Assembly (NCBI GenBank): GCA_043778225.1
Contig: JAYWGM010000094.1
Coordinates: 90,267 to 154,266, forward strand
DNA: 64,000 bases
Direction: 5' to 3'
DNA from: Deinococcales bacterium
Lineage (GTDB): Bacteria > Deinococcota > Deinococci > Deinococcales > JAAFIG01
How positions within the stretch are numbered: position 1 is the stretch's first letter; each line of letters begins with the position of its first letter. Below, one piece after another: positions 27,001 to 30,000 of the stretch. Position numbers: made by a program.

Positions 27001-30000
27001 TACCCCGATTTTTTCGGATACCGTAATTAACTCGAGGGTCGCGTCTATGTTAATGCGTTTGAGTTTGCCCCAATGGTCTTGTCCAGCCGAATAATACTCA
27101 CGAAAATAGGCAGCCGTATGAAAAACCGTGTCTATGCCCTCGAGGGCTGAGGTAAAACCAGCTACGTTTTCCATATCACTTTCGATCATCTCGAGCGGCA
27201 AATTGCCAAAGAGTTTTTGCGCTTTTTGTTTGGAGCGCACCAAGGCTATCACTTCCCAACCTTGCTCGAGCAGCCCGCGAACCAAGTTATGACCGAGCAT
27301 TCCTGTGCTACCAGTAACCAGTGCTTTCATAATGACCTCTTTTCGGCATAGAACAGTATGCCAACTTAGTTTACATTATGTACACTTTTTTAAGATTTGT
27401 CAATCGTTACAGGCTTGAGTGTATTTTTTGTTGTGGCTTGTTCATCTGCCAATGCCGAAAGGCTTGTTCACCTGCCAATGCCGAAAGGCTTGTTCACCTG
27501 CCAATGCCGAAAGGCTTGTTCACCTGCCAATGCCGAAAGGCTTGTTCATCTGCCAATGCCGAAAGGCTTGTTCATCTGCCAATGTCGGAAGGCTTGTTTA
27601 CCTCAATTTAGCCAATGACTTACGAATTAAGCCTTCGGCGGTGTCATCTGCGCCACCCTCGAGCAGATTAGCAACCACGGTTCGCACTTGGGCATCGCGG
27701 TAGCCCAAAGAAATTAAGGCTTCGACCGCATCTCTAAATGCCTCATTTTCCGATGGGGCTGGACGCGGTGCGCCCTTGCCAACCGCCAAATGGGCGGGCA
27801 GTTTAGAACTTAGCTCGAGAATCAGCCGCTCGGCAGTTTTTTTGCCCACCCCAGAAACGCTGGCAAGTAACTTCGCGTCTTCTTTCATGATTGCACTGGC
27901 GAGGACATTCGGATTGTAAGTGGACAGGGCTGCTAAGGCAATTCGTGGACCGACTCCAGAAACACTTAAAAGCAGCTTAAAAATTTCTAAAGCATCGGAT
28001 TCGTGGAAACCATATAAACTCCAGCCATCCTCGCGCACAATTAAGCTGGTCTCGAGCCGCACCAGTTGCCCGACTTTACAACGTTCTAAACTTGGGCGTG
28101 GGCAAGAAATCTCGAGACCAATACCACCAACCGCGACAATCGCACTCGAGTCTTTAACCGCCACCACCAGACCTTCGACAAAAGCTATCATGCGCTATTG
28201 TATATTTTATCTGAGTTCTTGATAGGCTCGTTCAAACAGTGGGTCGCGCCCAGTTTCAAAAGCTGTATTGACATCATCTCGAGCCTCGATGTCTGGGGTG
28301 ACACGCATCGGGACTCGAGTGCCATCGGGGTTAAGCGTGCGGACATAAGTAATCCCTAAGGCGCTCTGGTCGGCAAGTTGCCAGAATTCGGTGGCGGTGT
28401 CGAGGACACCATAGGTACTTTCGCCAATGACTGTTCCGCGCTTGGCATATTGAATTAGGTATGCCAGCAATTCGCCACAACTGGCGGTTTGGGAATTAAC
28501 CAACACGGTCACTGCGCCTTTCCACGAGGCTGGCTTGGCAATCTCGTAACTGGCTAAATCTTTGGGGTCGTTGCCGATAAACTTACCGCCATCAAAGCCA
28601 ACATTGACTCGAGCCAGACGGGTTTCGTTGATGTTGACGGCTCTGCCAATAAAAGCACTGGCTGCGCCGTAACATTCGGTCTCTTCGCCGCCGCCGTTAT
28701 CGCGCAAATCGATAATTATCGCTTTGGCATTTTGGCTTTGGGCTTGTAGCACCAATTGATGAACCCTTGGGGCGATGTCGTTGCTGCCAATAAAAGTTGG
28801 AATTCGCAAAGCCACCAGACCGGCTGGTGCATTGGGTGGCTGGTACAAAAACGGCAAATTGGTTTTCTCGAGCCGAGTGCGTCGCATCGTGGCTTCAAAA
28901 CGCACTGGGTTAGCTGCATCACCACGTAACACATCGAGCTTGACAGGTTGACTGCTGTTTAGTGCGGTTCGTAAGTCGTCAAAGTTAGTCACTCGAGTGC
29001 CGTTGACGCTAATCACACGGTCAAATGGGCGAATTCCAGCTTTGAAGGCTGGGGAATCTGCCACGATGTCCAGCACTGCAATTTCGTTTCTCGAGTTGGC
29101 ATTGCCAAAACTCAGACCATACAATGGATTGGGATTGGGATTGATGCCCCTAAACTGCGTCAGGATGGTGCGGTAGGTGCTGGGCGATAAATAACTGGTG
29201 TGGTCGTCGCGCATTCCTTGGGCTAGGCGCTCAATAAATGGACGTGCCTCGGCAAATTCACAAGTTTCGGCTTTGGGTTGGCAGCGCTCGAGCAGTTGAG
29301 CCGCCAGACTTTTGGCAAGTTCGTCGGGTTTGACGCTCGAGTACCCGTGGTAATGAAAGCTCATGTAAAAACTGGCTTCACGAAATAATTCGGTGGCTGG
29401 GCTGGCAAGCGAACTCGAGGAAACAAAAAACCCAACCAGAACCGCCCAGATTATTTTCATACCCTAGTTTGCCAAACAGCCATGAGACAGGGCTTTTAGC
29501 CAGATGAGTTTACAAAACCCCAGTCGCCTCGAGCTTACCGTTTTTGACTTCAATAATCACCAATGGGCGGTTTTGAATTGCGCCAGCCTTAAATTGGACA
29601 GGGCTGGTCACACCGGGCGCGGGTTTACTCGAGAAACCATCAAGGGCTTTTTTGACCGCCGCACGACTTGGGCTGCTGCTGCGCTTAATCGCTTCCAAGA
29701 GCGCACGGGTGGCATCGTAGGCTTGCATGGCTCGAGCGTTGGGTGTACCGCCGCCATAACGGCGCTGGAAGGCTTTAACAAATTGGGTGGTGTTGCCAAC
29801 TGTACTGGTGGCGTGAAAAAACGAAAGCATTGTTAAACCTTCGACTGCCGCGCCACCCCCTAGTAGTTCTTGGCTGTAAGCAGCGCTGCCGGTTAGCATT
29901 GGCAGCTTGACCCCTTCGGCTGCCAGTGCTTGGGCAATTCGGGCGCAGTCGGCGGCTGTCCCCGACAAAAAGACCGCATCTGGGCGTGGGTCATCTTGAA

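What a model noticed while it worked through the whole genome (the two positions that open the first line are those of the whole stretch)
27435..27603. Two hundred young tandem duplications with a fixed unit of 21-28 nt and unrelated sequences
Of 271 tandem-repeat loci in the genome, 200 have a unit of 20-30 nt (peak 24), 2.5-6.5 nearly identical copies and unit sequences unrelated to each other; between genes and at gene ends every length from 22 to 28 nt occurs, inside genes almost only 21, 24, 27 and 30. I read this as the signature of a lineage-specific mutational process that duplicates about 24 nt at a time (a slippage or template-switch step of fixed reach in replication or in Deinococcus-type break repair), filtered by selection for reading frame. 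New would be a bacterial duplication process with a defined length, which also feeds 7-10-residue repeats into proteins and remodels promoter regions, and may be what multiplies [...]
Evidence so far: Tandem Repeats Finder (2 7 7 80 10 60 500) on the whole genome, overlapping rows merged: 271 loci; periods 20:1, 21:18, 22:6, 23:27, 24:55, 25:32, 26:21, 27:27, 28:6, 29:2, 30:5, against 71 loci for all other periods; median 2.6 copies, median 94% matches; only 19 pairs of units resemble each other (blastn-short, E 1e-4). Place: 68 inside called genes (64 of them with period 21, 24, 27 or 30; 45 of 47 in Pfam-bearing genes), 81 across a gene end and 51 intergenic (periods 20-29 without preference for multiples of three); flanking genes divergent in 67, convergent in 30. 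Examples: C94:117701-117869 (26 nt x 6.5), C44:70041-70171 (24 x 5.5), C55:6310-6469 (26 x 6.2), C51:80530-80676 (25 x 5.9) [...]
(Added by a program. Inside this text positions count along the whole contig: contig position 90,267 is position 1 of the stretch shown here. "Call 12" and the like, gene names such as g00115 and contig names such as C1 are that model's own, and its searches are not shown. The text may have been shortened before it was handed on; [...] marks where a part breaks off. The agent that wrote the report below was given it as the finding of a first reader that could run no searches.)

Follow-up and report, generated by a model that had tools for sequence, protein, structure and literature searches.

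The report
Fixed-length minisatellites across a Deinococcales genome
This uncultured Deinococcales bacterium carries about 200 unrelated short tandem repeats whose unit is almost always 23-28 bases long, which points to a DNA-copying error with a built-in length ruler that often writes sequence absent from relatives.

Summary
The 26-nt x 6.5 array at 27435-27603 sits between the ruvA stop codon and the promoter of an epimerase gene. Genome-wide I find 270 tandem-repeat loci, 199 with units of 20-30 nt. Both edges of the length peak are real, not detection limits. Outside genes the period jumps from 2 loci at 22 nt to 24 loci at 23 nt, then tails off by 29 nt. Units are unrelated and boundaries carry no motif. 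Arrays are scattered at random, kept in frame inside genes, and five-fold enriched where the first unit holds a gene's stop codon. The class occurs across the family at 5-30 per Mb, against 47 per Mb here and 2.5 per Mb in other families of the order.

Inserted DNA is a whole multiple of the period. However, in 7 of 14 informative G000 loci (and one array in relative G005) relatives hold only a short seed, not the whole unit. Some arrays are old and shared between species. The ruler is not identified. The closest known case is the tandem repeats of Borg elements, which have much broader unit lengths. This scan has noted similar arrays before on other DNA (Acidobacteriota with 14-16 bp units, and a SAR324 relative).

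The parts
27435..27603 (.). Focal array, 26 nt x 6.5 copies. Read in the ruvA direction it has the form a(ba)x6.
   Evidence: TRF score 296 at 95% matches. Copies laid in register. RNA fold z-score +1.23, so no structure.
27591..27603 (-). End copy ('seed'), 13 nt, covering the last two codons and the stop codon of ruvA. The stop lies at 27598-27600.
   Evidence: The same 13 nt, with 12 of 13 matching, follow ruvA in relatives L001 and L002, whose downstream DNA is otherwise unrelated.
27598..28191 (-). ruvA
   Evidence: Pfam RuvA_N, HHH_5 and RuvA_C. 85-94% identical proteins in six Deinococcales MAGs.
26290..27330 (-). NAD-dependent epimerase/dehydratase gene downstream of the array
   Evidence: Pfam PF01370, E 1.4e-26.
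27375..27403 (-). Promoter-like site TTGACA-17-CATAAT between the array and the epimerase gene
   Evidence: 11 of 12 consensus matches. This is a consensus match only.
1195..1303 (.). Array 23 nt x 4.7, overlapping a gene's stop codon
3842..3924 (.). Array 27 nt x 3.1. The unit is the last 27 nt of a gene including its stop codon. Four orthologues have one copy.
6219..6297 (.). Array 26 nt x 3.0 between genes, at a break in synteny
15350..15391 (.). Array 20 nt x 2.1
30789..30847 (.). Array 27 nt x 2.2 inside a gene, in a low-complexity linker whose length varies among relatives
32390..32443 (.). Array 21 nt x 2.6 inside a gene at 78% matches. The linker varies among relatives.
41407..41461 (.). 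Array 26 nt x 2.1. G005 and G006 have one copy of this unit. G005 built a different 25-nt array just upstream on the same seed.
55400..55452 (.). Array 25 nt x 2.1 between genes

Best explanation
The array after ruvA is one of about 190 locus-unique minisatellites, plus about 50 proto-arrays of 1.5-1.9 copies. I read them as by-products of a sequence-independent error of DNA synthesis in replication or repair.

The proposed error: a 3' end re-primes or slips and adds a whole tract of about 23-28 nt next to a short pre-existing seed. Once two copies exist, ordinary slipped-strand mispairing moves copy number up and down and keeps copies alike. A full collapse returns the locus to the bare seed.

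Selection then keeps arrays only where they do no harm. These places are in-frame stretches of tolerant protein regions, DNA between genes, and above all gene ends, where the first unit keeps the stop codon and the protein is unchanged.

The length window is set by the machinery (a ruler with a hard minimum near 23 nt), not by sequence or by the supply of seeds.

Shown: the window, its independence of sequence, insertions in whole multiples of the period, copy-number change between species, the frame and stop-codon filters, and the family-level spread.
Inferred: that slippage or re-priming is the act, what the ruler is, and where the non-local centre of many units comes from.
For: - Window real at both edges. 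Among 111 TRF score-60 arrays of period 17-34 outside ORFs the counts are 22 nt: 2, 23: 24, 24: 19, 25: 26, 26: 18, 27: 11, 28: 5, 29: 2.
- Unrelated units: 19 similar pairs among 199 loci.
- No base preference and no motif at the boundaries of 192 tracts. Array GC is 50.9% against 48.7% for the genome.
- Random scatter: 146 bins of 20 kb have mean 1.007 and variance 1.02.
- Seed supply is not limiting: CTCGAG pairs occur about 60-230 times at every spacing from 15 to 60 nt.
- Direct repeats of 14 nt or more lying outside all TRF arrays pile up at the same spacings. Counts are 12, 10, 5 and 11 at spacings 24-27, against 0-3 at most other spacings from 10 to 59; the exceptions are 5 each at 18 and 30.
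- Insertions relative to orthologues: exactly 48 = 2 x 24 at C31:24291; about 72-78, 50 and 26 nt at three other loci.
- Copy number at one locus differs among four species: 1.36, 1.36, 2.36 and 1.88.
- Frame filter: 72 of 89 in-ORF arrays have a period that is a multiple of three.
- Stop codon: 64 of 199 arrays overlap one, against 11.7 +/- 3.1 on random placement. In 68 of 70 overlaps less than one unit lies in the coding part.
- Density of 21-28-nt arrays per Mb: G000 47, G010 30, G006 25, G003 22, G011 11, G013 5. Four genomes of other families give 1 array in 400 kb.
Against: - No step of the mechanism was observed.
- Local slippage cannot make the unit centres that relatives lack: 7 of 14 informative G000 loci, plus one array in G005.
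- End copies have any length from 0 to a full unit. Chance microhomology does not predict this.
- No repair-gene difference tracks the arrays. The Pol I 5'-nuclease domain scores equally in five genomes. recJ is found in 29 of 31 relatives. xseA passes its cut-off in only one other family.
- No copy-number polymorphism was seen in two runs, though only contigs were available.
- Relatives were sampled at 100-400 kb each and are not independent.
Confidence: 0.5

Rival explanations
1. Persistence threshold rather than a birth ruler. Tandem duplications are born at all short lengths. Only units of 23 nt or more can re-pair out of register well enough to expand, so they alone persist. The right tail reflects a birth rate that falls with length.
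For: - The period distribution has a hard left edge and a soft right tail.
- Arrays do drift in copy number between species.
- From memory, not seen here: a minimal efficient processing segment of 23-27 bp has been reported for E. coli recombination. The passages I read give more than 40 bp for Bacillus subtilis (PMC4824099).
Against: - Fresh two-copy duplications of 17-20 nt should still be seen, but exact tracts of 1.9 copies or more number 0, 0, 0 and 2 at those spacings, against 23-39 at 23-24 nt.
- Proto-arrays of under two copies already show the 24-27 spacing.
- A random walk in copy number would raise persistence a few-fold, not more than 20-fold (inference).
Confidence: 0.15
2. An enzyme writes the units. 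This could be an integrase-like, CRISPR-adaptation-like or template-independent polymerase activity that inserts tracts of set length beside a seed. The Borg authors raise the CRISPR-type option for Borg repeats.
For: - The narrow length window.
- Unit centres that are absent from relatives and have no donor in the genome.
- Independent arrays built on the same seed in different species.
- The CRISPR-type suggestion in PMC9879509 (Discussion passage).
Against: - No boundary motif.
- No spacers and no terminal repeats.
- Copy numbers are not fixed at two, so these are not excision footprints.
- The genome's own CRISPR repeats are 28 nt or longer at spacings of 58-65 nt, which does not match the 23-28 window.
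- No candidate gene was identified.
Confidence: 0.15
3. The arrays are functional elements: regulator binding sites, spacers that tune promoters, or structured RNAs, kept by selection.
For: - Arrays are enriched at gene ends and between genes.
- The focal array lies about 30 nt upstream of a strong promoter-like site. Each of its units carries a TTGGCA, one of which the scan scores as a weak -35-like box.
Against: - Units are unrelated.
- The focal array is not structured as RNA, z = +1.23.
- DNA downstream of ruvA is different in every relative.
- Orthologous sites mostly lack the arrays.
- The same window of unit lengths holds inside genes.
Confidence: 0.05
4. Assembly artefact of a metagenome bin.
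For: - Three arrays touch contig ends.
- k-mer contigs break inside the focal array.
Against: - The median array is 64 nt, probably shorter than a short read (read length assumed, not checked).
- One contig of run X2 crosses the arrays at 30789, 32390 and 41407 without a difference.
- The same class occurs in separately assembled relatives.
- The simulated genome gives almost none.
Confidence: 0.02

Closest known systems
Tandem repeats of Borg extrachromosomal elements of Methanoperedens (Schoelmerich et al. 2023, PMC9879509). I read passages and the first 66 of 460 rows of Table S14.
   Same: - Many arrays, each with its own unit.
- Units divisible by three inside ORFs but not between genes: 14-38% there, 34 of 111 here.
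- Arrays may start in the end of an ORF.
- Arrays are flanked by partial repeats.
- The authors note that the centre of the unit is missing from the supposed seed, which is the same puzzle found here.
   Different: - Borg units are broad. They span 9-54 nt in the 66 rows read, and 13 of the 56 Black Borg rows fall in 21-28 nt.
- Borg repeats are perfect and A-rich. Here the median match is 94% and there is no composition bias.
- Borgs are archaeal extrachromosomal elements whose hosts lack the repeats. Here the arrays sit in a bacterial chromosome and its whole family carries them.
Classical bacterial VNTR or minisatellite loci changing by slipped-strand mispairing
   Same: Copy number differs between relatives at one locus: 1.36, 1.36, 2.36 and 1.88 copies, and 2 against 3 copies.
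   Different: I know of no other bacterium with a genome-wide shared unit-length window across about 200 unrelated loci. None turned up in six full-text searches.
Duplications bounded by short direct repeats in flap-nuclease mutants (yeast rad27, E. coli polA 5'-nuclease). Recalled from memory, not read here.
   Same: A pre-existing short repeat pair becomes a-b-a-b-a. Three loci fit this: C51:77416, C89:58311 and C89:59240.
   Different: - Those duplications span a wide range of lengths and copy only local DNA.
- The Pol I 5'-nuclease domain is present here with normal scores.
Earlier notes of this scan: an Acidobacteriota chromosome with unrelated 14-16-bp arrays (e1-724894) and a SAR324-related chromosome packed with unrelated minisatellites (e1-7402763)
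   Same: Locus-unique arrays with a unit length typical of the lineage, and frame-keeping inside genes.
   Different: The unit window differs (14-16 against 23-28 nt). These are unchecked notes that I did not test.

Membership tests
Borg-type pervasive locus-unique tandem repeats | Unit sequence unique to each locus | tested here: met
   19 similar pairs, involving 13 of 199 loci.
Borg-type pervasive locus-unique tandem repeats | Units divisible by three inside ORFs but not between genes | tested here: met
   72 of 89 inside crude ORFs, against 34 of 111 outside.
Borg-type pervasive locus-unique tandem repeats | Flanking partial repeats, with the unit centre absent from the seed | tested here: met
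   End copies have any length. Only the seed is present in relatives at 7 of 14 informative G000 loci and at one G005 array.
Borg-type pervasive locus-unique tandem repeats | Perfect copies without SNPs | tested here: not met
   42 of 199 arrays are 100% matched. The median is 94%, and 21 are below 85%.
Borg-type pervasive locus-unique tandem repeats | A-rich units | tested here: not met
   Array GC is 50.9% against 48.7% for the genome, and boundary base counts are flat. Strand-specific A content was not tested.
Borg-type pervasive locus-unique tandem repeats | Copy number varies within a population | tested here: inconclusive
   Only k-mer contigs of two runs were available. No indels were listed, and contigs break inside the focal array.
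VNTR by slipped-strand mispairing | Alleles differ by whole units | tested here: met
   One exact case: 48 = 2 x 24 at C31:24291. Others lie within a few nt of whole multiples: about 72-78, 50, 26 and 25-26 nt.
CRISPR array | Repeats separated by unique spacers | tested here: not met
   Units lie head to tail.
Transposon excision footprint (target-site duplication) | Exactly two copies of a fixed target length | tested here: not met
   Copy numbers run continuously from 1.5 to 6.5.
Iterons or regulatory direct repeats | A shared motif bound by one protein | tested here: not met
   Units are unrelated, and there is no boundary motif.

The most novel reading that the evidence does not exclude
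Bacteria of this family, and perhaps Borgs and other lineages with their own typical unit length, possess a 'unit-length writer'. This would be a step of replication or repair that lays down tracts of set length (here at least 23 nt) beside a short seed, partly without a local template. It would create new sequence that is then multiplied, fed into proteins as 7-9-residue repeats, and added to gene ends.
Probability: 0.22. Interest if true: 0.85.

Novelty: new variant of a known kind. Interest (0 to 1): 0.6.

Why it matters
A sharp, sequence-independent length window across about 200 unrelated loci is the signature of a molecular ruler acting on DNA. It turns the open question of how Borg-type tandem repeats are born, including where the centre of the unit comes from, into something testable. 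A bacterial family with many sequenced relatives allows events to be polarised by comparing species. The process also matters for genome evolution: it adds peptide repeats to proteins and lengthens gene ends and promoter regions. Practically, such arrays break short-read assemblies. Their unit length could also be tested as a lineage marker of the replication or repair machinery.

Tried and rejected
- **Close strains in metagenome contigs.** None found: 5 loci at 30-44% RuvA identity only.
- **Copy-number polymorphism.** Read laying on runs X1-X3 served k-mer contigs only. They stop inside the focal array and list no indels, so nothing can be said about polymorphism.
- **Orthologue of the focal intergenic region.** DNA downstream of ruvA differs in all seven relatives.
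- **Donor of unit sequences elsewhere in G000.** 97 of 123 units share a 14-mer elsewhere, against 109 of 123 random control segments, so there is no signal. k = 18 was not run.
- **Local template for unit centres.** The longest word shared with a locus's own flanks is 6.18 nt, against 5.85 with other loci's flanks. One of the cases of 8 nt or more (C2:2185) reads as a decayed extra copy in the listing; the others were not examined.
- **Decay of whole duplications.** Beyond array ends the sequence is 29-33% identical to the expected next unit, close to chance.
- **Link to the hyper-abundant CTCGAG.**
  - Units hold it in 41 of 206 cases, against 29.8 +/- 5 expected.
  - It is enriched about 2.5-fold in the end-copy part. 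The same enrichment appears in direct repeats at control spacings, 10 of 41 against 2.4 expected.
  - There is no peak of CTCGAG-pair spacing at 21-28 nt.
  - I read this as a seed or ascertainment effect, not a cause.
- **Repair-gene differences.** None tracks the arrays.
- **Structured RNA.** No.
- **More orthologues.** Searches returned coordinates only, so three 20-kb queries gave just the 13 short stretches fetched.
- **All 21-nt arrays as part of the class.** Rejected. The three 21-nt in-gene arrays and one 21-nt-spaced direct repeat that I could compare are conserved protein repeats shared with relatives.
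Full report
**The locus**

Window 27435-27603 holds 6.5 head-to-tail copies of a 26-nt unit at 95% matches. All genes here read on the minus strand.
- The array's high-coordinate end copy (13 nt) covers the last two codons and the stop codon of ruvA (27598-28191; Pfam RuvA_N, HHH_5, RuvA_C).
- Its other end lies about 30 nt upstream of a promoter-like site (TTGACA-17-CATAAT, 27403-27375). That site precedes an NAD-dependent epimerase gene (26290-27330).
- As RNA the array has no structure, z = +1.23.
- In seven relatives the DNA after ruvA is different each time. Two of them keep 12 of the 13 nt of the end copy right after the stop codon.
- Read in the ruvA direction the array is therefore a(ba)x6, with 'a' at least partly ancestral.

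**The organism**

The window is C94:90267-154266 of a 4.03-Mb draft of 107 contigs with GC 48.7%. The closest public records are MAGs titled Deinococcales bacterium.

**Checking the genome-wide claim**

Median copy number is 2.6 and median match is 94%. There are 19 similar unit pairs.

It is not.
- At minimum score 30, periods 17-20 hold only 4, 5, 1 and 2 loci, and periods 31-32 hold none.
- A third-order Markov copy of the genome yields 1 locus in all for periods 20-30.
- Exact periodic tracts of 1.9 copies or more, counted without TRF, number 0, 0, 0, 2, 9, 4, 23, 39, 25, 18, 17, 4 and 1 for spacings 17 to 29.

**Shape of the window**

With crude genes (stop-to-stop ORFs of 120 aa or more, greedily chosen; 3357 genes covering 90% of the genome), the 111 TRF score-60 arrays of period 17-34 not inside ORFs have these periods:

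| Period (nt) | 21 | 22 | 23 | 24 | 25 | 26 | 27 | 28 | 29 | 30 | 33 |
|---|---|---|---|---|---|---|---|---|---|---|---|
| Loci | 2 | 2 | 24 | 19 | 26 | 18 | 11 | 5 | 2 | 1 | 1 |

The mean is 24.95 and the SD 1.88. The distribution has a hard left edge at 23 nt and a soft right tail.

Inside ORFs, 72 of 89 arrays have period 21, 24, 27 or 30. The 21-nt class is over-represented in genes. All three 21-nt in-gene arrays that I could compare with relatives are shared (C101:78292, C37:28563, C23:6897). So is a 21-nt-spaced direct repeat (C20:22325). They are old protein repeats and should not be counted with the rest.

**What the arrays are like**

- They are scattered at random: 146 bins of 20 kb have mean 1.007 and variance 1.02.
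- Units are unrelated, apart from about a dozen loci that belong to small dispersed repeat families.
- Boundaries show no base preference, and composition is ordinary.
- The length of the end copy is spread evenly from 0 to a whole unit, and these partial copies are exact.
- Beyond the ends the sequence is only 29-33% identical to the expected next unit.
- Every array therefore has the form (a b)n a, with arbitrary phase.
- Outside all TRF arrays, exact direct repeats of 14 nt or more pile up at the same spacings. Counts are 12, 10, 5 and 11 at 24-27 nt, against 0-3 at most spacings from 10 to 59, with 5 each at 18 and 30. I read these as the n = 1 state (a b a).

**Where they sit**

- 64 of 199 arrays overlap the stop codon of a crude gene, against 11.7 +/- 3.1 on random placement.
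- 89 lie inside ORFs, against 165.6 expected.
- 46 lie elsewhere, against 21.8 expected.
- In 68 of 70 array-stop overlaps, less than one unit lies in the coding part and 24-163 nt follow the stop. That the stop is in the first unit follows from logic. The five-fold excess does not.
- The simplest reading is that a repeat whose first unit keeps the stop codon leaves the protein unchanged. A mutational hot spot at gene ends is not excluded.

**Relatives**

Sampled DNA gives these counts of 21-28-nt arrays:

| Genome | Kinship | Arrays / DNA sampled | Per Mb |
|---|---|---|---|
| G000 | this genome | 191 / 4.03 Mb | 47 |
| G010 | other genus, same family | 6 / 200 kb | 30 |
| G006 | same genus | 10 / 400 kb | 25 |
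| G003 | same genus | 7 / 319 kb | 22 |
| G011 | other genus, same family | 2 / 182 kb | 11 |
| G013 | other genus, same family (single-contig genome) | 2 / 400 kb | 5 |
| G019, G021, G025, G028 | other families of the order | 1 / 400 kb together | 2.5 |

In G003 and G006, 7 of 9 and 10 of 10 TR loci fall in the window. The samples are small and the genomes are related. With that caveat the class is a family trait, strongest here.

**Polarity from orthologues**

Same-genus genomes are only 75-85% identical to G000 in genes. G001, G003 and G005 are about 91% identical to one another. Many intergenic arrays therefore cannot be aligned. Four G000 loci were uninformative: C99:18771, C86:19312, C51:72648 and C89:51613. 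The informative cases fall into three groups.

1. *The whole unit is present once in relatives, and G000 has gained one or two further copies (2.0-3.1 copies in all).*
   - C64:7595.
   - Window 3842, with four orthologues.
   - C31:25871.
   - Window 41407.
2. *Relatives hold only the seed 'a', and the centre 'b' is absent.*
   - C31:24291 is the cleanest case. Three orthologues and a likely paralogous copy lack exactly 48 = 2 x 24 nt inside a gene.
   - C1:49420 and C2:11289.
   - C73:5123 (the alignment is less sure).
   - C79:13368 and C89:54369.
   - Beyond the G000 loci, a 25-nt x 2.6 array in G005 is absent from G003, G006 and G000 at the same place.
   - A 23-nt insertion in G003 relative to G005 has the same form, but its polarity is unclear.
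3. *Relatives already have a-b-a with an 8-11-nt 'a', and G000 has more units.*
   - C51:77416.
   - C89:58311.
   - C89:59240, where four species have 1.36, 1.36, 2.36 and 1.88 copies.

Inserted DNA is exactly 2 x 24 nt at C31:24291 and lies within a few nt of a whole multiple of the period elsewhere. At two sites different species carry unrelated arrays on the same seed.

**What this means for the mechanism**

Group 3 is classical slippage between short direct repeats, and group 1 is plain tandem duplication. Group 2 cannot be made from local DNA alone.
- I found no donor for the centres in G000 above background.
- I found no convincing local template.
- The assembly is only 89% complete, and foreign DNA was not searched.
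- A collapse (a b a to a) erases 'b'. Absence in a single relative is therefore weak evidence, but absence in several relatives and a likely paralogue is not.

Seed supply does not set the period. CTCGAG pairs alone provide about 60-230 repeat pairs at every spacing from 15 to 60 nt. The window must therefore come from the machinery.

The hard edge at 23 nt with a geometric-looking tail would fit a threshold acting on a falling length distribution. One example is a displaced strand or loop that escapes nucleases only once it is long enough to be bound by single-strand-binding protein. This is inference, resting on recalled eukaryotic long-flap work, and I have no evidence for it here.
- The Pol I 5'-nuclease domain is present with equal scores in genomes rich and poor in arrays.
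- recJ and xseA do not track the arrays.

**Comparison with what is known**

The closest description is that of Borg tandem repeats (PMC9879509). I read passages and the first 66 of 460 rows of Table S14.
- Shared features: unique units, multiples of three inside ORFs only, arrays starting in ORF ends, flanking partial repeats, and the authors' own remark that the origin of the central part of the unit is a mystery.
- Differences: Borg units are broad (9-54 nt in the rows read, 13 of 56 Black Borg rows within 21-28). They are perfect and A-rich, and they are absent from the host.

Notes of this scan report unrelated arrays with 14-16-bp units in an Acidobacteriota chromosome and dense minisatellites in a SAR324 relative (unchecked). 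That suggests lineage-typical unit lengths.

Six full-text searches turned up no description of a 23-28-nt window in a bacterial chromosome or of such arrays in Deinococcota. The library lacks most subscription journals.

**Verdict**

However, the process is not simply duplication, not all arrays are young, and the phenomenon is not without precedent. The nature of the ruler and the origin of the unit centres remain open.

Noticed in passing
window 46248-46323, and genome-wide: A separate class of 8-nt and 16-nt arrays built from one unit family (AAAAGGTY-like). There are 35 arrays of period 8 and 33 of period 16 with TRF score 48 or more. Three sit at contig ends.
   Followed up: partly
window 10925-11064, 11795-11862 and 15119-15292: Small dispersed repeats. 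The 68-nt one has copies about 87% identical on dozens of contigs of four same-genus genomes, often at contig ends. The 30-nt array at 15230-15292 lies inside one of them.
   Followed up: no
whole window and genome: CTCGAG occurs 24,877 times, or 6.17 per kb, which is 26.7 times the zero-order expectation. It runs at 4.0-6.7 per kb in the six sampled genomes of the family and at 0.03-2.9 per kb in four genomes of other families. This is already in scan note e1-2303518.
   Followed up: partly
G000:C80:17-2600 (outside the window): A CRISPR-like array: about 38 repeat pairs of 28 nt or more at spacings of 58-65 nt.
   Followed up: no
window 41407-41461 and the orthologous place in locus L183 (about 3590-3680): The same intergenic seed was used independently in two species. 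G000 duplicated a 26-nt ancestral unit. G005 built a different 25-nt array just upstream of it. The site of C89:54369 likewise holds unrelated arrays in G000 and G003.
   Followed up: yes
genome-wide: One third of the arrays (64 of 199) carry a gene's stop codon in their first unit, five times the random expectation. I cannot tell whether this reflects selection alone or a hot spot at gene ends.
   Followed up: partly
C89:59240-59286 (outside the window): In G000 the last 12 nt of an old 25-nt array are replaced by 12 other nt that contain CTCGAG. Relatives keep the repeat sequence there. This may be a trace of the pressure that creates CTCGAG.
   Followed up: no
31 genomes of the order: xseA (TIGR00237) passes its cut-off only in the three genomes of one other family, and was not found in G000 or its genus. 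recJ was found in 29 of 31.
   Followed up: no
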